A DNA stretch of 64,000 bases from Escherichia coli (lineage in GTDB: Bacteria > Pseudomonadota > Gammaproteobacteria > Enterobacterales > Enterobacteriaceae): assembly GCF_048403405.1 (NCBI RefSeq), contig NZ_CP183129.1; one strand, given 5' to 3'. The notes beneath the pieces were generated by a model. That model searched no databases. It worked only from the letters and a program-made list of their open reading frames with translations, and was not told the origin of the DNA. The position numbers and the translations under genes were made by a program. This document shows positions 39,004 to 55,667 of the stretch, in pieces; position 1 is the first letter of the stretch, and the number at the start of each line of letters is the position of its first letter.

Positions 39004-39131
39004 CCCAGCAACCCCGACGAAGACAACATCATCCAGGCCATGGAAAGAAAAAGAGCAACCAGCATTAGTGAAAATGAAATGCCGACAATTACACAGAGGA
39101 TCTTCGCCAGCGTTATGAGTTTGTCTGACAT
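39000..39131 (-). CDS. hypothetical small membrane protein (43 aa)
   Basis: Strong RBS (GGGAGG) before ATG; single hydrophobic TM segment; sits between R and Rz. Confidence 0.35.
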
Positions 39132-42270: not shown

Positions 42271-42313
42271 ATCTGACAAAATCAATATAAACAGCCCCTC
42301 CGGAGAGGGGCTG
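42271..42313 (-). terminator. intrinsic terminator (minus strand) upstream of lysis cassette
   Basis: Hairpin CAGCCCCTC-CGGA-GAGGGGCTG followed on minus strand by TTTATATTGATTTT. Confidence 0.5.
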
Positions 42314-42610
42314 GAGAGTGGCGCTATGTGCCATTGCATGGTGCCGGGTGCCTCCCGGTGAATTCAGTACCAGCACCTGAATCCGCGATTATCCCATATA
42401 CCTACTCGCTGATTGCCCCTCCGCACAGGGGGATTCACCATGCCAGTTTCTTTTAACAAACTCCCCGCAAACCAGACAACAGTCAACCGCCTGAATTGTG
42501 AAGTATTTAAAAATTTCTCCCGCTAACTGATACCCGGCTAACAGTCTGGCGTTTTCTTTTTCAGCAACGGGAAAGCAACAACCACCACACCCACCAGCCG
42601 CCCATTTACC

Positions 42611-45960: not shown

Positions 45961-46116
45961 TTACTCCTCAGGTTCGTAAGCTGTGAAGACAGCGACCTCC
46001 GTCTGGCCGGTTCGGATTCGTACCTCGCAGAGGTCTTTCCTCGTTACCAGTGCCGTCACTATGACGGTTAAACAGATGACGATCAGGGCGATTAACATCG
46101 CCTTTTGCTGCTTCAT
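45961..46116 (-). CDS. hok: Hok/Gef-family type I toxin (51 aa)
   Basis: Translation MKQQKAMLIALIVICLTVIVTALVTRKDLCEVRIRTGQTEVAVFTAYEPEE is a canonical Hok-family peptide; not in the ORF track (below size cut-off). Confidence 0.85.
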   Translation of the reverse strand: MKQQKAMLIALIVICLTVIVTALVTRKDLCEVRIRTGQTEVAVFTAYEPEE

Positions 46117-46129
46117 AGCCTGCTTCTCC

Positions 46130-46230
46130 TTGACCTTTCGGTCCGTAAGAGGCTAATCTCTATGTGTCGCATAGATATGGCCTCAGATTAATGTTAAGCG
46201 TCTTGCAGGACGCGTAATGTTAACTGGGGC
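46130..46230 (+). ncRNA. sok: expected Sok-type antisense RNA / mok leader region of hok locus (location approximate)
   Basis: By analogy with hok/sok loci the antisense RNA overlaps the hok mRNA leader; exact ends not determined. Confidence 0.3.
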
Positions 46231-46374
46231 TTTTCTCTATCTGCCTTTTGGTGTTCATGCCTGAGACAGATAGCCTCAAGCACCCGCAGTTATTCTACTT
46301 AACTAAGATTTCCCCGCAAACCGTTTTTGTCCGGCACAGTAAATATCCAACTAAACCAATGGCGTTCGCTGTAT

Positions 46375-49323: not shown

Positions 49324-49616
49324 TGAGCCACCTCCTGATAAATCACCGCATGCCCCAGTTTCTCCGCCAGTGCCAGCTCTGCCTTAGCGCCCGCTGACCG
49401 CTGCCAGCCATTCAGCATGTAAATCGCATCCACACAACGAATCATTGCCATGCAAATATCCATGTAGTGCGGCTGTGTCAGCCCGTCCGGAAGTACTGCC
49501 GGGTTTAAGACGGTATGCCCTTCCCGTTTCAGTTCCTCTTCCGCCTTGTGAAACGCCTCACGGTTGAAATTTTCATATCCCGTCATTGGACCGGCAATAT
49601 AAACTCTCACCCTCAC
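49320..49616 (-). CDS. DUF4406/nucleoside 2-deoxyribosyltransferase-like protein
   Basis: VYIAGPMTG motif near N-terminus; GTG start with GGAGG RBS chosen to avoid overlap with upstream ORF. Confidence 0.5.
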   Translation of the reverse strand: MRVRVYIAGPMTGYENFNREAFHKAEEELKREGHTVLNPAVLPDGLTQPHYMDICMAMIRCVDAIYMLNGWQRSAGAKAELALAEKLGHAVIYQEVAQ

Positions 49617-50020
49617 TCCATCACCTCCTGAAAGTTTCCCCGATAGAACGCCAGCACACGCTGCATGACTTCGCTCTGGCGGCACTCACGACAAATTATG
49701 TTCTGCCGTCTGTTGTAACGACGTATTTCTCCGTCAGGTAACTTTCGAATCAGTGTCGGGTCAGCAGCCTTCTCCGGTGTCTTACGCCATACGCGATACG
49801 CCTGCTCTGATGGAAATACCCCGCAACCAGAGAGCCAGACATCACCACTGGCCGCAAGCGCACCAGATAAACGACGAATAGCGGTCTTACTGACACCCGT
49901 TTTATCTGCCAGTTGTCGAAAAGTTTCTCGTCCGCTCAGGCGCACGAATTCCACAATGCGCGCCTTCACTTCTTCCCGCTCTTCTGGTGTAAATACTTTT
50001 GCCATAAGCGCCTCCGGCAA
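49613..50020 (-). CDS. hypothetical protein with helix-turn-helix-like region (135 aa)
   Basis: ORF abutting upstream gene. Confidence 0.45.
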   Translation of the reverse strand: MPEALMAKVFTPEEREEVKARIVEFVRLSGRETFRQLADKTGVSKTAIRRLSGALAASGDVWLSGCGVFPSEQAYRVWRKTPEKAADPTLIRKLPDGEIRRYNRRQNIICRECRQSEVMQRVLAFYRGNFQEVME

Positions 50021-50809
50021 TCACTTTTCCGATACAACACGGCGGGAAGAATCACTAATCTGTCGAACAATATCCCGGTGCTTGTTCAGCTCCCGCAGCG
50101 CGGCGCAGACTCGCTCCCACTTCTGAACATCACTTTTCGCCCTGCGCAGCGCCAGGTTTGCCCTGCGAAGGGACGGAAAAATCAGCTCATCTGCTTGCGT
50201 TTCGGTAAACGATGGCAACGGCTGCACAATGTCCGCCACAGTTTCTGTTTTAATTTCTTCCTGTGTTGCGGCTTCCCGGACTGGTAACGCAGCACCTGCT
50301 GGCTGAGGAAAGGCCTTACCATCACTTTCCGTTACCAGCGCGGCTTTCGGCTCTGCTGGTAAATTATCGCCCGGCATGCAGTAACGAAATTTACCGTTCT
50401 GATTAACGCGTGCCAGCCGCCCCGTTGCGGTTACCACCGCCAGCGTGGAGGCAACCTTGCGAGTACTGACGCCGAACTTACCCGCCAGTTCCTCACACGT
50501 TTTAGCACCATCCTGACCGATAAACTCAATCATCATGTCTGCGGTAACTTTTTGTTCGACCTCCCCGGTCAGCATATCCTGTGCTTCAGATTTTACTGGC
50601 CGCTCTTCGGTTACCCGGGATTCACCTTCGCCAGCCAGAAACCAGGTGTGACCAGTTTTATCAACGACGCCATTTCTTTTGAGTTCCCACAGCTCGTTGA
50701 GAACCTCTTCACGACTGATATCAAGTCGCGCGGCCAGTTCTACCGATGTGGCTTTTCCCATTGCTTTCAGTGCGTCAAATACGGTTTCCATTAAAATTTC
50801 CTCCGACAA
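50021..50809 (-). CDS. hypothetical protein with two winged-helix-like segments (DUF1627-like, unverified)
   Basis: 262-aa ORF immediately after P-like gene. Confidence 0.5.
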
Positions 50810-50824
50810 AATCGTTTCTCAGAT

Positions 50825-51490
50825 TCAAATAAAACCAGCTGCCTTCCGGCGTTCGTATTCCTGTTTCAGCCGTTCAATTGGCGTTGGCCCTTGCGGGTGT
50901 TTCGCCCCTTCCAGTTGTCGTCGCACTGGCGGAACACTCATCCCGTTACCAACATGCTTTGCCCATTTCGTCAGTTGCCGTTCTGCAAGTCGTTTTAACT
51001 CACCCTGCGTCATCTGGCGCTCAATCCCTCTGGTACGCATTTCGAGGCAGATGTGGTACAGCACAGGCTGAGGCCACGGATATTTGTCGCTTCCGTCATA
51101 TCGCCAGGACTCATCACGCCAGCGGCGGTACTCCTCCATCACAGCATCCACCGTCAGGCCAAATGGATTGGCCCCGCTTTCTGAAATCAGCGCCACAAAC
51201 TCAGCCAGGTCCGGAGGCCATGTTTCACCCGCCCGGCAGCGGTCCATGCACTGGCGGCAGACCTGTCGGATTTGCTGCTCAGTCATCGCGCCAATCTGTG
51301 CAATCCAGAGCTTCGAAGGTGCGGCCCCGTTCTTCTGGGTCCAGCGGTTCGAATAAACCTCCCCCATGAGTTCCCACAGCTTCCAGACCGTTTCCGTCGC
51401 TGATAAATCCGTTTTCACGTTCCCACTGCTCACGTGCTGCCCGAATTTCCTGAACTGCCCGTGATGCGGTGCCACCTGGTGCTGCTGCAT
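50825..51490 (-). CDS. P: replication protein P-like (helicase loader); start uncertain
   Basis: C-terminal two thirds similar in pattern to lambda P; track ORF overlaps O by about 210 nt so true start is probably internal (for example near 51367). Confidence 0.6.
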   Translation of the reverse strand: MQQHQVAPHHGQFRKFGQHVSSGNVKTDLSATETVWKLWELMGEVYSNRWTQKNGAAPSKLWIAQIGAMTEQQIRQVCRQCMDRCRAGETWPPDLAEFVALISESGANPFGLTVDAVMEEYRRWRDESWRYDGSDKYPWPQPVLYHICLEMRTRGIERQMTQGELKRLAERQLTKWAKHVGNGMSVPPVRRQLEGAKHPQGPTPIERLKQEYERRKAAGFI

Positions 51491-52319
51491 GGTTTACCCC
51501 CTTGCTGACTGGTTTAACCTGCGCCCTGACGTGATTTACGTGACGGGCGAATTTCTGCTCCCACTGAATCTGCGTAAACACTTTCCCCTCCGCTGCCCAG
51601 TAGTCCCGGAAGGCGGCAAGTTCAGCAGGTGTAAATTCTGTCTCCGGCAAAGCCATCCCCCACAACGCAGCCCGTCGTCGAAAATCCCGTGACGGATACC
51701 AGCTATCGGTCATCGGAAATTTTCCGATGGGTTCGCTCAGGCCATCCAGGAATACAAGGGGTGCTGCCTGTAACGACAAAACTTCCTGCTCACTGGTCGG
51801 AGCACTCTCGCGTGCGTTATGTGTGGGGTTTAGATCTTTGGGTTCCTTTGGGTTCCGTGATCCGTTTTTGGGTGTCTTTGATGGAAAATTTGGGTGTCTT
51901 TGGTTATTTTCCATGCAGCTAAGAGTTCCGTTTTTGGGTCTGTTTTGTGCTGAAACATAACCATTTTCGGTACTGTTTTTATTAACAGCACCAATTTTAC
52001 CCACCTTTAAAGACTCCCGTTTTTGGGTGTATTCAGGCTCGGCAACACTTTCTTCTACACCGATAAGTCGGTACACCACAATTTGCTTTGTTCTGCCTTT
52101 TCTCTCACCGGTATCAACAATTAACCCAATCTCCATCAGGTGTCGTAAGCTGTCCTGCACAGTCTTTTTGTTCAGTTCCGTTACTTCTGCCAGTGCAGAT
52201 ACAGACGGGTATGCACACAAATCGGCACCGCACATATCAGCAAGCCAGGTCAATACAGACTTACTGGATGAACTGCCGGTTTTCACCTTTTTAGCCCATC
52301 GTAGTGCATCGATACTCAT
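51279..52319 (-). CDS. O: replication initiator O-like (N-terminal HTH initiator domain, DnaT-like C-terminus)
   Basis: Start set at MSIDALRWAKK...; iteron repeats embedded in mid-gene. Confidence 0.65.
   Translation of the reverse strand: MSIDALRWAKKVKTGSSSSKSVLTWLADMCGADLCAYPSVSALAEVTELNKKTVQDSLRHLMEIGLIVDTGERKGRTKQIVVYRLIGVEESVAEPEYTQKRESLKVGKIGAVNKNSTENGYVSAQNRPKNGTLSCMENNQRHPNFPSKTPKNGSRNPKEPKDLNPTHNARESAPTSEQEVLSLQAAPLVFLDGLSEPIGKFPMTDSWYPSRDFRRRAALWGMALPETEFTPAELAAFRDYWAAEGKVFTQIQWEQKFARHVNHVRAQVKPVSKGVNHAAAPGGTASRAVQEIRAAREQWERENGFISDGNGLEAVGTHGGGLFEPLDPEERGRTFEALDCTDWRDD
51840..52035. repeat. replication origin iterons inside O gene
   Basis: At least three copies of TCCGTTTTTGGGT(G/C)T plus TTTGGGTTCC repeats and adjacent AT-rich stretch. 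Confidence 0.5.
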
Positions 52320-52842
52320 ACAAACCCCTGGCAGACATTTGTTTATCTGCAAAGTAATATTGATATTGCTGACGATACGCATGCTTGAAAGCAATAGCTT
52401 TTTCTATAAGCTCGTCAGTCTCACGTTCCACAACAGCTGGATCCGCAAAAAGCAGCCCGGACTCCACCACATCGCCATATTCTTTGTTTAATCCGGCGAT
52501 CATGTACGTAATGCTTTTTCCATCACTGATCTCACGATACAACCTGAAATCACTAATTCGGATAGCCTCCATAATTGCCGGAATCAGCGCCGTGAATTTT
52601 TTCCGCTTATCCCTGGTGTCGATAGCTTTCCAGCGTTCGAATATCTTCACCCGGTTAACGCCCAGCGCCCGTTGATCAACCTCGCCATCATTAAACGTGA
52701 CGCGTTGAACATCGATGTTCGGGCGTTCTTTCAGAGCCCAGAATGCTTCCGTGATTAATATCGTCGCTTGCTCCTGTGTCATTCCTGGTCGACATACCCA
52801 GGCATCCAGAGCCTCACAAACCTGTTCAGGGGTGATTTTCAT
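52291..52842 (-). CDS. hypothetical protein (183 aa) in cII position
   Basis: ORF translationally coupled to cro-like gene, upstream of O. Confidence 0.4.
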   Translation of the reverse strand: MKITPEQVCEALDAWVCRPGMTQEQATILITEAFWALKERPNIDVQRVTFNDGEVDQRALGVNRVKIFERWKAIDTRDKRKKFTALIPAIMEAIRISDFRLYREISDGKSITYMIAGLNKEYGDVVESGLLFADPAVVERETDELIEKAIAFKHAYRQQYQYYFADKQMSARGLYEYRCTTMG

Positions 52843-53053
52843 TGTTCAACCGCCCCGCCCGCTTTGCCTTACGATATTCGTCATAAACTTTGGGGTCGTA
52901 CTGAAGTTCCCCGCCGGATGCCTCCTGTAGACGCATCGCGCGACCTTCAGGAACCAGTTTCCCCCATGCAGCAACGCTTGCCAGCCTAACTCCTGCGGCA
53001 TTGGCAAGCTTTGTTTTGCTGCCAAAAAACGCTATAGCATCAATTTTCAACAT
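52826..53053 (-). CDS. dicC: Cro-like regulator (DicC-like)
   Basis: 75-aa ORF divergent from repressor; sequence (FGSKTKLAxAAG.RLAS ... LVPEGRAMRLQEASGGELQYDPKVYDEY) matches recalled DicC. Confidence 0.7.
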   Translation of the reverse strand: MLKIDAIAFFGSKTKLANAAGVRLASVAAWGKLVPEGRAMRLQEASGGELQYDPKVYDEYRKAKRAGRLNNENHP

Positions 53054-53129
53054 ATCGAACTCCTTAGATTTTCCTAAGGAAACTAGATCGTAGAGAAACC
53101 TAAGTCAAGAAAAATTAGAATTACCTAAT
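53054..53129. promoter_or_regulatory. divergent promoter/operator region between dicC-like and dicA-like genes
   Basis: Palindrome TTCCTAAGGAA plus further CCTAAG half-sites. Confidence 0.5.
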
Positions 53130-53537
53130 ATGAAAAACGAAACCTTCGGTGCTCGCCTCTTATACAGGCGTAAAAAATTAAAACTGTCTCAGGCCGCATT
53201 AGGTAAGCTGGTCAAAGTGGCTCACGTAACAATTTCTCAATGGGAAAGAGATGAAACACAGCCAGCGGGGAAGAGATTATTCGCACTGAGCCAGGCGCTT
53301 CAGTGCTCGCCGACTTGGCTTCTTTTTGGAGATGAAGATAAGCAACCAGGCGAACCGATCCCAGATAATCAGCCAGTTAATCTGACAGAAGATCAAAAAG
53401 AGTTGCTTCAACTGTTCGACGCACTGCCTGAGTCAGAGCAAAAGGCTCTGTTGTCAGAGATGCGTGCTCGAGTTGAGAATTTCAACAAACTTTTTGAAGA
53501 ACTACTCAAAGCTCGCAAAAGAAGCGCAAATAAATAA
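53130..53537 (+). CDS. dicA: prophage repressor (DicA-like, HTH-XRE, no S24 peptidase domain)
   Basis: 135-aa ORF; HTH (LSQAALGKLVKVAHVTISQWE); C-terminal SPTWLLFGDEDKQP ... LPESEQ ... EMRARVENFNKLFEELLKAR matches recalled DicA. Confidence 0.8.
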   Translation: MKNETFGARLLYRRKKLKLSQAALGKLVKVAHVTISQWERDETQPAGKRLFALSQALQCSPTWLLFGDEDKQPGEPIPDNQPVNLTEDQKELLQLFDALPESEQKALLSEMRARVENFNKLFEELLKARKRSANK

Positions 53538-54282: not shown

Positions 54283-54584
54283 TTTATTCACAGGTGAGGT
54301 AGAGTGCGTGCGCCGGACACGGATAAGAATCCGGCACTGACAGTTTACTAAAAAGGATATATCCCTGAAAAGTCAGGGCATAACACGAAAGCGCCCGGCG
54401 AAGTTAGTCTCTCTGTATAGGTCGTCGTTAAATTTAATTCGATCGTGCGCTTCCGGTTGTGGCAATCCGCGAAATGGCGCGGCGGTAAGTATGGCTGGGG
54501 TTTCCTCCATTGCTCCAGAAAATGCACCGGGTTGTCAGGTTGACCATACGCTTAAGTGACAGCCCCGCCACAATACCCATGTGT

Positions 54585-54637
54585 AGTCTTTGGTGGCATC
54601 AGTTCTACTCCGTGACTGCTCTGCCACCCTTTTTAAA
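54585..54637 (+). ncRNA. dicF: DicF-like small RNA (3' stem-loop/terminator region conserved)
   Basis: TTTGGTGGCATCAGTTCTACTCCGTGACTGCTCTGCCACCCTTTTT closely matches recalled DicF 3' portion, with compensatory stem changes GGCGG/CCGCC to GGTGG/CCACC. Confidence 0.55.
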
Positions 54638-54812
54638 GTGAATTTTGTGATGCGGTGAATGCGGCTAAGCGCACGCGGAACAGTTAAAACCAAAAACAGT
54701 GTTATGGGTGGATTCTCTGTATCCGGCGTTAATTGTTAACTGGTTAACGTCACCTGGAGGCACCAGGCACCGCATCAACAAAGTTCACTTCGGTGATGAA
54801 AGGTAAGAGAAA

Positions 54813-55667
54813 ATGTTGAATGTAGCTATTGAAAACCAGAACGGGTGGAATTATAGTGCACCTGCACCTCATAAAACGGGTGCCGGGCGTGGAAACCCGG
54901 AATTCAATCAAGCGCATAACCGCGCTCAGGCGGTTTTTTTATGCGTCAAGCACAGCCACATTCAGATTATGGTGGGGCGTGCAGGGCAGCTGCAAGGCTG
55001 GCCGGATTCTTGGTTGACCGGTATTTCCACCCCTGTACGCCTCACCACCCTTATGGTCGTGGAAAACCTTGGTGGTGAGTTATTAATACTCAACCAAGAG
55101 GCTGCCATTATGGCTACTATCCCTACCCTTTCTCACCCTGACGTAACCATCGAAAATGGTCGCGCTGTCACTACGTCTGTTGCGGTTGCAGAGTTCTTCC
55201 GCAAAATGCACAAGGACGTTCTGCGCAAAATTGAAACGCTAGAATGCTCTGAAGATTTTAACGAGCGCAATTTTACGCCCGTTACCTACACCGACGCCAA
55301 AGGCGAAAAACGCCCCATGTACCAAATCACCAAAAACGGCTTCGTTTTCCTGGTGATGGGGTTCACAGGTAAAAAAGCCGCAACTTTCAAAGAAGCCTAC
55401 ATCGCTGAGTTCGATCGCATGGAGGAAGAACTGCGCCAGAATAACGCCCCGTCTCCCGACAAAATGATTCACGGGGACGGACGCACCCTGGTTATCCGTC
55501 TCGACGAACACGGCAATATCAAATTCACTGAAACCGTTCCTGACGGCGCAATGGTCTGCACCCTGGATACCTTCCGGTTTTATCTGGAGAAACAAGGATG
55601 GACTCTTGTAAACCGGAGCGCAATTAAAAATATGACTGTGGAGCAATTGCTAAAAATTCATTGTTGA
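54813..55667 (+). CDS. Rha-family phage regulatory protein (possible antirepressor); start uncertain
   Basis: C-terminal 185 aa carry Rha-like motifs (AVAEFF.K.H..VLR.I ... MGFTGKKA..FKEAYI.EFDRMEEEL); alternative start at 55110. Confidence 0.65.
   Translation: MLNVAIENQNGWNYSAPAPHKTGAGRGNPEFNQAHNRAQAVFLCVKHSHIQIMVGRAGQLQGWPDSWLTGISTPVRLTTLMVVENLGGELLILNQEAAIMATIPTLSHPDVTIENGRAVTTSVAVAEFFRKMHKDVLRKIETLECSEDFNERNFTPVTYTDAKGEKRPMYQITKNGFVFLVMGFTGKKAATFKEAYIAEFDRMEEELRQNNAPSPDKMIHGDGRTLVIRLDEHGNIKFTETVPDGAMVCTLDTFRFYLEKQGWTLVNRSAIKNMTVEQLLKIHC

What the first reader, a model, noticed from the sequence alone, without database searches (positions are those of the whole stretch)
51840..52035. Iteron cluster inside the O-like initiator gene
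Repeats of TCCGTTTTTGGGT(G/C)T (at least three copies) plus TTTGGGTTCC duplications and an adjacent AT-rich stretch lie within the initiator gene, the architecture of ori-lambda, though the iteron sequence differs from lambda's. This marks the replication origin and predicts initiator specificity distinct from lambda O.
Basis: partly seen in the sequence, partly recalled or inferred. Interest (0 to 1): 0.3.

Follow-up and report, generated by a model that had tools for sequence, protein, structure and literature searches.

The report
Prophage replication origin inside initiator gene
The repeats are real and are almost certainly the initiator-binding sites (iterons) of a lambda-style replication origin inside the replication-initiator gene of a common E. 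coli prophage, which is an expected, textbook layout.

Summary
On the gene-sense (minus) strand, ACCCAAAAACGG occurs three times exactly within 167 bp and nowhere else in 64 kb. Six of the window's seven ACCCAAA copies lie in 51837-52028.

The array sits in gene 51279-52319 (minus), just after the part that encodes a predicted winged-helix DNA-binding domain. A lambda-P-like helicase-loader gene follows.

The repeats are constrained as DNA, not as peptide. Copies fall in three reading frames. In six relatives at 65-76% nucleotide identity, the core is the only invariant run of 6 nt or more in the first 310 nt.

A scan for paired cores in viral contigs gave 115 usable ORFs, and 111 carry the same N-domain with the array at the same place. 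N-domain and iterons are inherited together, while the C-terminal domain is swapped at a joint at 51835-51839.

- The initiator is not a Pfam lambda-O member. It combines an HTH_36-type domain with a DnaT-like domain.
- The iteron is close to phi80's.
- The AT-rich stretch lies inside the array and aligns with two decayed iterons.

Binding and origin activity are inferred, not shown. This is a new member of a known kind, of low to moderate interest.

The parts
51279..52319 (-). Replication-initiator gene (346 aa, starts ATG MSIDALRW). It has an N-terminal winged-helix domain, an iteron-encoded linker, a DnaT-like domain and a C-terminal tail.
   Evidence: ORF. Pfam DnaT 6.5e-17 and HTH_36 3.3e-4. 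PHROG 'replication initiation protein' 1.7e-90. Annotated 'phage replication protein' in LC567818.
52050..52319 (-). Region coding for the N-terminal winged-helix DNA-binding domain (aa 1-90), the presumed iteron reader.
   Evidence: AlphaFold model with pLDDT 89.7 and a helix-helix-helix-helix-strand-strand topology. Foldseek matches winged-helix regulators and RepA_N-type initiators. The same domain is found in 111 of 115 array-bearing ORFs.
52013..52030 (-). Iteron 1, ACACCCAAAAACGGGAGT. Its dyad arms match 5 of 6. Read as TQKRE.
   Evidence: The core is invariant in all relatives.
51987..52004 (-). Site 2, GTGGGTAAAATTGGTGCT, a decayed iteron. All seven relatives have an intact CCCAAAAACGG here.
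   Evidence: Alignments.
51956..51973 (-). Site 3, GTACCGAAAATGGTTATG, a degenerate iteron. Some E. coli variants restore CGG.
   Evidence: (family D1).
51957..51986 (-). It lies between iterons 1 and 4.
51924..51941 (-). Iteron 4, AGACCCAAAAACGGAACT, read as PKNG. It is deleted in three relatives and polymorphic in E. coli.
51880..51897 (-). Half-site 5, ACACCCAAATTTTCCATC. It has the left arm only and is conserved in all relatives.
51858..51875 (-). Iteron 6, ACACCCAAAAACGGATCA, read as PKNG. The core is invariant in all relatives.
51837..51856 (-). Tandem 10-mer GGAACCCAAA x2 (TTTGGGTTCC on the + strand). It corresponds to the least stable post-iteron segment of relatives.
51818..51839 (-). 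Conserved block AAAGATCTAAACCCCACACATA, which holds the mosaic joint. Homology to Rac-SA53 ydaU and to the Actinobacillus phage starts at 51839 and 51835.
   Evidence: phi80 has AAAAGATCT at the equivalent place.
51510..51740 (-). Region coding for the DnaT-like domain (aa 194-270).
   Evidence: Pfam PF17948 at 61.5 bits. PDB DnaT chains 6aep and 4ou6 at 1e-18 to 1e-19.
50825..51490 (-). Lambda-P-like helicase-loader gene. It overlaps the initiator gene by 212 nt.
   Evidence: Pfam PF06992 5.2e-16. phrog_109 2.2e-63. Overlap.

Best explanation
This is the replication origin of a lambdoid prophage (the PPompW type of E. coli), embedded in its own initiator gene. The initiator's N-terminal winged-helix domain is inferred to bind the 18-bp quasi-palindromic iterons, consensus ACACCC-AAAAAC-GGGTGT. 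The window has three full copies, one conserved half-site and two decayed copies, spaced mostly by about 22, 33 or 44 bp, that is, close to whole helical turns. By analogy with the lambda O-some, the bound array would bend and destabilise neighbouring DNA. The C-terminal part (DnaT-like domain plus tail) would then recruit the P-like loader with host DnaB. What is shown here: the repeats, their DNA-level conservation, their fixed place after the N-domain, their co-inheritance with it, the modular joint and the gene order. What is inferred: binding, unwinding, loader recruitment and whether this particular copy still fires.
For: Clustering is far beyond chance. Copies lie in three reading frames, TQKRE, PKNG and HPNF. 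In six collinear relatives at 65-76% nucleotide identity, ACCCAAAAACGG is the only invariant run of 6 nt or more in gene nt 1-310. Only 9 of 96 third codon positions are invariant in the N-domain, against 4 of 4 in the core. EPP-1, a plaque-forming phage, has the same N-domain (71% aa) and five full iterons plus one half-copy, but a different C-terminal domain, Phg_2220_C. Rac-SA53 YdaU has the same C-terminal part but a DUF1376 N-domain and no such repeats, with the joint at 51835-51839. Of 115 viral-contig ORFs with paired cores, 111 carry this N-domain, with the array starting mostly 250-420 nt into the gene. The N-domain is modelled as a winged helix with pLDDT 89.7. Lambda O and this protein both hit phrog_678 and phrog_345 with their N-terminal parts. 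The annotated lambda and phi80 origins have the same layout and similar iterons. The gene order is Cro-like, cII/YdaT-like, initiator, P-like.
Against: No experiment bears on this sequence, and no paper in the library mentions the iteron. The window lacks a lambda-like AT-rich tract after the last iteron; that segment is about 58% AT, against 83% in lambda and 77% in phi80. Sites 2 and 3 are decayed relative to all relatives, and iteron 4 is polymorphic. PPompW prophages are reported to be defective, at least in packaging (PMC8112680). HTH_36 scores below Pfam's cut-off in this protein, 20.8 against 25 bits. A direct profile comparison with lambda O was inconclusive.
Confidence: 0.8

Rival explanations
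1. The array is a relic. It was an origin, but in this defective prophage lineage it no longer fires, because two of the seven site positions have decayed and there is no AT-rich flank.
For: Site 2 is intact in all seven relatives but mutated at 5 core positions here. Polymorphism among E. coli copies concentrates in gene nt 305-409, with 19 of 25 variable sites. All PPompW prophages were judged defective (PMC8112680). The post-iteron segment is not the least stable one.
Against: Iteron 1, half-site 5, iteron 6 and the tandem 10-mers show 1 variable site in 110 nt across 67 E. coli loci. Both replication ORFs are intact. The module is present at 95% identity or more in 907 of 5426 complete E. 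coli genomes. For lambda, two iterons plus the adjacent AT-rich region are reported to form the minimal fragment competent for unwinding (cited in PMC7466680). The PPompW defects described concern packaging and lysis genes, not replication.
Confidence: 0.25
2. The repeats bind the initiator but act mainly in control (autoregulation, titration, or exclusion of related phages), and strand opening happens elsewhere.
For: Plasmid iterons do both jobs (established knowledge). No strong AT-rich flank is present here. Up to 4 copies of the module occur per genome, so cross-talk is plausible.
Against: The layout matches the mapped origins of lambda and phi80 point by point. No other repeat cluster or markedly AT-rich tract was found between the Cro-like gene and the end of the P-like gene. 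No DnaA boxes lie nearby.
Confidence: 0.1
3. The repeats only reflect a repetitive flexible linker peptide (PKNG-type) and have no function as DNA.
For: In phiV10 and H20 most copies share one frame and encode P(K/E)NG repeats. Lambda O's linker is likewise repeat-encoded.
Against: In the window and in EPP-1 the copies use two or three frames, giving TQKRE, PKNG, HPNF and PQKRD. Synonymous positions inside the core are invariant, whereas 91% of N-domain third positions vary. The core shows dyad symmetry, up to 6 of 6.
Confidence: 0.04

Closest known systems
ori-lambda (four 18-bp O-binding iterons plus an AT-rich tract inside gene O, followed by gene P)
   Same: Direct repeats sit inside the initiator gene, just after the DNA-binding N-domain coding part. 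The iterons are quasi-palindromic with an A-tract centre: TCCCTC-AAAAC-GAGGGA in lambda, ACACCC-AAAAAC-GGGTGT here. A P-like loader gene is next, and the gene order is Cro, cII-like, initiator, loader. A recombination joint lies right of the origin.
   Different: The initiator is not PF04492. Its C-terminal domain is DnaT-like rather than Phg_2220_C. Spacing is about 22-44 bp instead of 20-24 bp. There is no 80% AT tract after the last iteron. Two sites have decayed.
ori of phage phi80 (annotated gp15 binding sites, TTCCCGAAAACGGGAA)
   Same: The core differs by one base, CCCGAAAACGGGA in phi80 against CCCAAAAACGGGA here. AAAGATCT follows the origin in both.
   Different: phi80 gp15 is PF04492. 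The flanks are TT rather than ACA, the spacing is 21 bp, and a clear 77% AT tract follows the array.
Stx-phage origins (P27, 933W; six iterons), PMC7466680
   Same: They are found in the same hosts, and the origin sits in the middle of the initiator gene. They also carry extra, weakly bound iterons that are still needed.
   Different: Those are true lambda O/P regions with lambda-type iterons.
'Primosomal protein' initiators of phiV10/epsilon15-type phages, and the domesticated DopC/DopE pair (PMC5509034)
   Same: The same protein design, HTH_36 N-domain plus DnaT C-terminal domain followed by a P-like protein. phiV10 carries the same iteron core at the same place.
   Different: DopC is reported to have no iterons. 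phiV10 has 24-bp tandem spacing, GAAT flanks and no 212-nt overlap with the loader gene.
Iteron plasmids (RepA, pi, TrfA)
   Same: A winged-helix initiator and phased direct repeats. The fold search touches RepA_N-type initiators.
   Different: Plasmid iterons lie outside the rep gene, next to DnaA boxes and an AT-rich region. No DnaA box is present here.

Membership tests
Lambdoid origin of the ori-lambda type | Three or more direct repeats of about 18 bp with internal dyad symmetry | tested here: met
   Three full copies, one half-site and two decayed copies. Dyad arms match 3 to 5 of 6 here and up to 6 of 6 in relatives.
Lambdoid origin of the ori-lambda type | Repeats lie inside the initiator gene, in the linker after the DNA-binding N-domain | tested here: met
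   The array occupies gene nt 290-483 of 1041, and the N-domain is aa 1-90. The annotated lambda and phi80 records show the same placement.
Lambdoid origin of the ori-lambda type | AT-rich unwinding tract directly after the last iteron | tested here: not met
   The post-iteron segment is about 58% AT and is not among the three least stable 30-mers. The controls, lambda and phi80, rank first at that position. The least stable stretch lies inside the array.
Lambdoid origin of the ori-lambda type | Helicase-loader gene (P-like, or DnaC/DnaB type) immediately downstream | tested here: met
   PF06992 5.2e-16 and phrog_109 2.2e-63.
Lambdoid origin of the ori-lambda type | The initiator binds the repeats, and the fragment supports replication | not testable with these tools
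   Needs EMSA or footprinting and an origin-cloning assay.
Lambda O protein family (Pfam PF04492 Phage_rep_O) | N-terminal domain matches PF04492 above the cut-off | tested here: not met
   No PF04492 hit at E up to 0.01. Lambda O scores 123 bits and phi80 gp15 88 bits. There is only indirect similarity through phrog_678 and phrog_345, and hhalign was inconclusive.
HTH_36 + DnaT_C phage initiators (phiV10 'primosomal protein', DopC-like) | HTH_36-type winged-helix N-domain | tested here: inconclusive
   HTH_36 scores 20.8 bits against a cut-off of 25 in this protein. Relatives pass, phiV10 at 40.9 and EPP-1 at 30.5. The fold is predicted as a winged helix.
HTH_36 + DnaT_C phage initiators (phiV10 'primosomal protein', DopC-like) | C-terminal DnaT DNA-binding domain | tested here: met
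   PF17948 at 61.5 bits against a cut-off of 25. PDB DnaT chains at 1.6e-19.
Plasmid iteron origins | Iterons outside the rep gene, with DnaA boxes | tested here: not met
   The array is intragenic. There is no DnaA box within 2 kb.

The most novel reading that the evidence does not exclude
The origin may work as a hybrid of lambda-type and primosome-type initiation. It has no flanking AT-rich tract, so the winged-helix domain would assemble on the phased iterons and opening would occur inside the array, at the decayed sites 2-3. The initiator's own DnaT-type single-strand-binding domain would then capture the opened strand and hand over the P-like loader with DnaB. If so, the widely shared core (the same in HTH_36-type initiators and some PF04492 initiators, and one base different in phi80 gp15) would be a generic bending and assembly signal, and specificity would lie in the flanks and spacing.
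Probability: 0.2. Interest if true: 0.5.

Novelty: new member of a known kind. Interest (0 to 1): 0.22.

Why it matters
The module occurs in 908 of 5426 complete E. coli genomes, including O157:H7, O26, O111 and O145 strains, with up to four copies per genome. Its origin is not annotated in any of the five annotated records of this module type examined. Knowing the iterons and the module boundary lets one predict which co-resident prophages share an initiator. Such prophages could cross-activate or interfere with each other after induction, which bears on Shiga-toxin phage biology. The locus also gives a defined test case for what sets initiator-iteron specificity when the core is shared. It does not change the general picture of phage replication.

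Tried and rejected
- Profile comparison of the N-domain alignment with lambda O aligned the equivalent helix-turn-helix and wing (aa 41-83 against 73-115), but only at E 0.015 and probability 3%. It is not usable as proof of homology.
- Full-text searches for the iteron string, and for iterons together with DnaT or primosomal phage initiators, found nothing on this origin. The Eru replication-type paper does not mention DnaT or iterons.
- There are no DnaA boxes near the array. No sigma-70-like promoter, and only one weak terminator-like site, lies in 50700-53300. The window has no tRNA genes.
- A 13-nt inverted repeat flanks iteron 4 (51901-51913 and 51951-51963). It is absent from EPP-1, so I treated it as chance or lineage-specific.
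- The viral-contig search with the N-domain protein returned only near-identical E. coli copies. These were useful for polymorphism but not for divergence, so I obtained divergent relatives from a DNA pattern scan instead.
- The idea that the TTTGGGTTCC tandem is a pair of iteron half-sites is not supported. Relatives have a non-repeated segment there.

Full report
**1. The observation**

The + strand at 51837-52034 holds the repeats as described. On the gene-sense (minus) strand:
- The 12-mer ACCCAAAAACGG is exact at 51862-51873, 51928-51939 and 52017-52028. Allowing one mismatch, the whole 64 kb holds one other match. The expectation is 0.42, and none of 100 shuffles reached four.
- The 7-mer ACCCAAA is not over-represented in the window overall, with 7 copies against 11 expected. 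But 6 of the 7 lie in 51837-52028, all on one strand.
- TTTGGGTTCC is a perfect tandem pair at 51837-51856.
- The most AT-rich 60 nt (31.7% GC) is 51940-51999.

**2. The gene around it**

The array lies in a minus-strand ORF. Its real start, judged from homologues, is the ATG at 52319 (MSIDALRW), and it ends at 51279, giving 346 aa.
- Pfam finds a DnaT DNA-binding domain at aa 201-267 (61.5 bits) and a sub-threshold HTH_36 at aa 36-67 (20.8 bits against 25). It finds no Phage_rep_O.
- PHROGs calls it a replication initiation protein (1.7e-90).
- PDB DnaT chains match aa 194-270 at about 1e-19.
- An AlphaFold model of aa 1-90 (pLDDT 89.7) is a winged helix-turn-helix. Its Foldseek neighbours are winged-helix regulators and RepA_N-type plasmid initiators, at weak E-values.
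- Upstream on the same strand are a Cro-like gene and a YdaT/cII-like gene. A DicA/cI-like repressor is divergent. Downstream is a lambda-P-like loader (PF06992, phrog_109).
- The region is 98.8% identical to the PPompW prophages of STEC O145:H28. The N-domain and array segment (window 51800-52330) occurs in 908 of 5426 complete E. coli genomes.

**3. Anatomy of the array (gene-sense)**

| Site | Window coordinates | Sequence | Status |
|---|---|---|---|
| Iteron 1 | 52030-52013 | ACACCCAAAAACGGGAGT | full |
| Site 2 | 52004-51987 | GTGGGTAAAATTGGTGCT | decayed |
| Site 3 | 51973-51956 | GTACCGAAAATGGTTATG | degenerate |
| Iteron 4 | 51941-51924 | AGACCCAAAAACGGAACT | full |
| Half-site 5 | 51897-51880 | ACACCCAAATTTTCCATC | left arm only |
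| Iteron 6 | 51875-51858 | ACACCCAAAAACGGATCA | full |
| Tandem 10-mer | 51856-51837 | GGAACCCAAA x2 | lineage-specific |

- Start-to-start spacings are 26, 31, 32, 44 and 22 nt.
- Thirty iterons from seven related genes give the consensus AAAsAcACCCAAAAACGGGAnnnTTA. The dyad form is ACACCC-AAAAAC-GGGTGT, perfect in one EPP-1 copy.

**4. DNA-level or peptide-level repeats?**

- The copies are read in three frames: TQKRE, PKNG and HPNF.
- Six collinear relatives (window, EPP-1, L194, L204, L125, L127) share 65-76% nucleotide identity in the N-domain coding part.
- In them only 9 of 96 third codon positions are invariant, and there is no invariant run of 6 nt or more in nt 1-288.
- By contrast, ACCCAAAAACGG at nt 292-303 is invariant, including 4 of 4 third positions.
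- This is a constraint on the DNA itself.

**5. Relatives**

- Edwardsiella phage EPP-1, a plaque-forming isolate, has 71% aa identity in the N-domain. It has five full iterons and one half-copy of the same iteron, spaced 26, 33, 33, 33 and 22 nt.
- A multiple alignment with five further viral-contig relatives (73-84% aa) shows that iteron 1, half-site 5 and iteron 6 are present in all. Site 2 is intact in all but the window, and iteron 4 is deleted in three.
- A scan of viral contigs for two CCCAAAAACGG cores within 9-39 nt returned 120 loci, of which 115 had an ORF of at least 140 aa around the array.
- Of those 115, 111 match an HMM of this N-domain. Two of the four exceptions are cut by contig ends, and two are true PF04492 lambda-O-type initiators.
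- The array starts about 250-420 nt into most of these genes.
- phiV10, Vibrio phage H20, AP22 and Bcep176 each carry their own array at that place.

**6. Modularity**

- EPP-1 combines the same N-domain and iterons with a Phg_2220_C C-terminal domain.
- Rac-SA53 YdaU combines a DUF1376 N-domain, without such repeats, with the window's DnaT-type C-terminal part.
- Nucleotide homology to Rac-SA53 and to an Actinobacillus phage begins at 51839 and 51835, directly after the array.
- Among the array-bearing ORFs, 54 have DnaT-type, 6 Phg_2220_C-type and 51 other C-termini.
- This is the lambda logic: the N-domain and iterons form the specificity module, and the C-terminal part with the loader forms the other module.
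- The lambda record marks recombination points just right of its origin.

**7. Comparison with mapped origins**

- Lambda: iterons TCCCTCAAAACGAGGGA at 39034-39118, followed by an AT-rich tract.
- phi80: annotated gp15 sites TTCCCGAAAACGGGAA, followed by an AT-rich tract ending in AAAAGATCT.
- The present core differs from phi80's by one base, and AAAGATCT follows the array here too.
- A nearest-neighbour stability scan places the least stable 30-mer of lambda O (83% AT, z 3.3) and of phi80 gene 15 (77% AT, z 3.0) right after the last iteron. The same position ranks first in EPP-1, L192, L194 and L127.
- In the window, the least stable 30-mer is instead at 51957-51986, inside the array (73% AT, z 2.7). 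The post-iteron segment is only about 58% AT.

**8. State of this copy**

- Among 67 E. coli loci there are 25 variable positions in 250 nt.
- Of these, 19 fall in gene nt 305-409 (sites 2-4 and spacers), none in nt 270-304, and one in nt 410-484 (half-site 5, iteron 6 and the tandem).
- Some variants improve the sites. A305T makes iteron 1 a perfect dyad, and T357C restores CGG in site 3.
- PPompW prophages are described as defective for packaging, though they excise (PMC8112680).
- Whether this origin fires is open.

**9. Literature**

- I found no paper on this iteron or this origin.
- PMC5509034 describes the same protein design (HTH_36 plus DnaT C-terminus, followed by a P-like protein) as the domesticated DopC/DopE pair. 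It reports no iterons there, and it assigns HTH_36 to lambda O's N-terminus by HHpred.
- PMC7466680 sets out the lambda and Stx-phage origin rules used above.

**10. Verdict**

This is a real iteron array marking a lambda-style origin inside a non-PF04492, DnaT-domain initiator gene. It is a new member of a known kind. The layout is textbook, and the open points are the site of unwinding and the basis of specificity. Interest is low to moderate.

Noticed in passing
window 51279-51490 (minus strand): The initiator ORF and the P-like loader ORF overlap by 212 nt in different frames. The loader's residues 19-221 match phrog_109 positions 22-236, so it starts near 51490. The initiator's tail is conserved as protein in divergent relatives. 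Both frames stay open over 212-224 nt in L194, L204, L125, L127 and Rac-SA53. Public records (LC567818, KU052037) instead annotate a truncated loader of 140-153 aa. This is probably a real dual-coding stretch of about 70 codons.
   Followed up: partly
phrog_15931 against window 50825-52319: One PHROG profile (482 positions, unknown function) matches both the initiator's C-terminal half (positions 163-347) and the loader (280-482). It looks as if it was built from mis-called fusions or frameshifted genes across the overlap.
   Followed up: no
L198 and L200 (IMG/VR contigs): True PF04492 lambda-O-type initiators carry iterons with the same CCCAAAAACGG core as the HTH_36-type family. The core is therefore shared across both N-domain types.
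   Followed up: partly
window 54578-55052 (+): Rfam hits in the immunity-region neighbourhood: DicF RNA (54578-54629), isrK (54864-54940) and C4 antisense RNA (54965-55052). The last two lie just inside the start of a 284-aa ORF at 54813-55667.
   Followed up: no
window 46114-46285 (-), 42283-42472 (-), 13061-13259 (-): Rfam hits: sok antitoxin RNA (a hok/sok-type module), STnc100 sRNA and IS009 RNA.
   Followed up: no
window 51901-51913 and 51951-51963: A 13-nt inverted repeat (85% complementary) brackets iteron 4. It is not present in EPP-1.
   Followed up: partly
L084 1808-1843 (phiV10 initiator gene nt 407-442): Directly after phiV10's last iteron there are three tandem 12-mers, (A/T)AACCAGTCA-type, encoding QSYNQSYNQSF. 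This is also that gene's least stable 30-mer, and it recalls the repeated unwinding elements of other origins.
   Followed up: no
window 49613-50809 (-): Downstream of the loader gene are DUF1627 (262 aa) and DUF977 (135 aa) proteins with weak helix-turn-helix matches. Their function is unknown, and they sit where lambda has ren and nin genes.
   Followed up: no
E. coli complete genomes: The N-domain and iteron module occurs up to 4 times in one genome, and 3 of the 993 places are on plasmids. Co-resident prophages may therefore share one initiator specificity.
   Followed up: no
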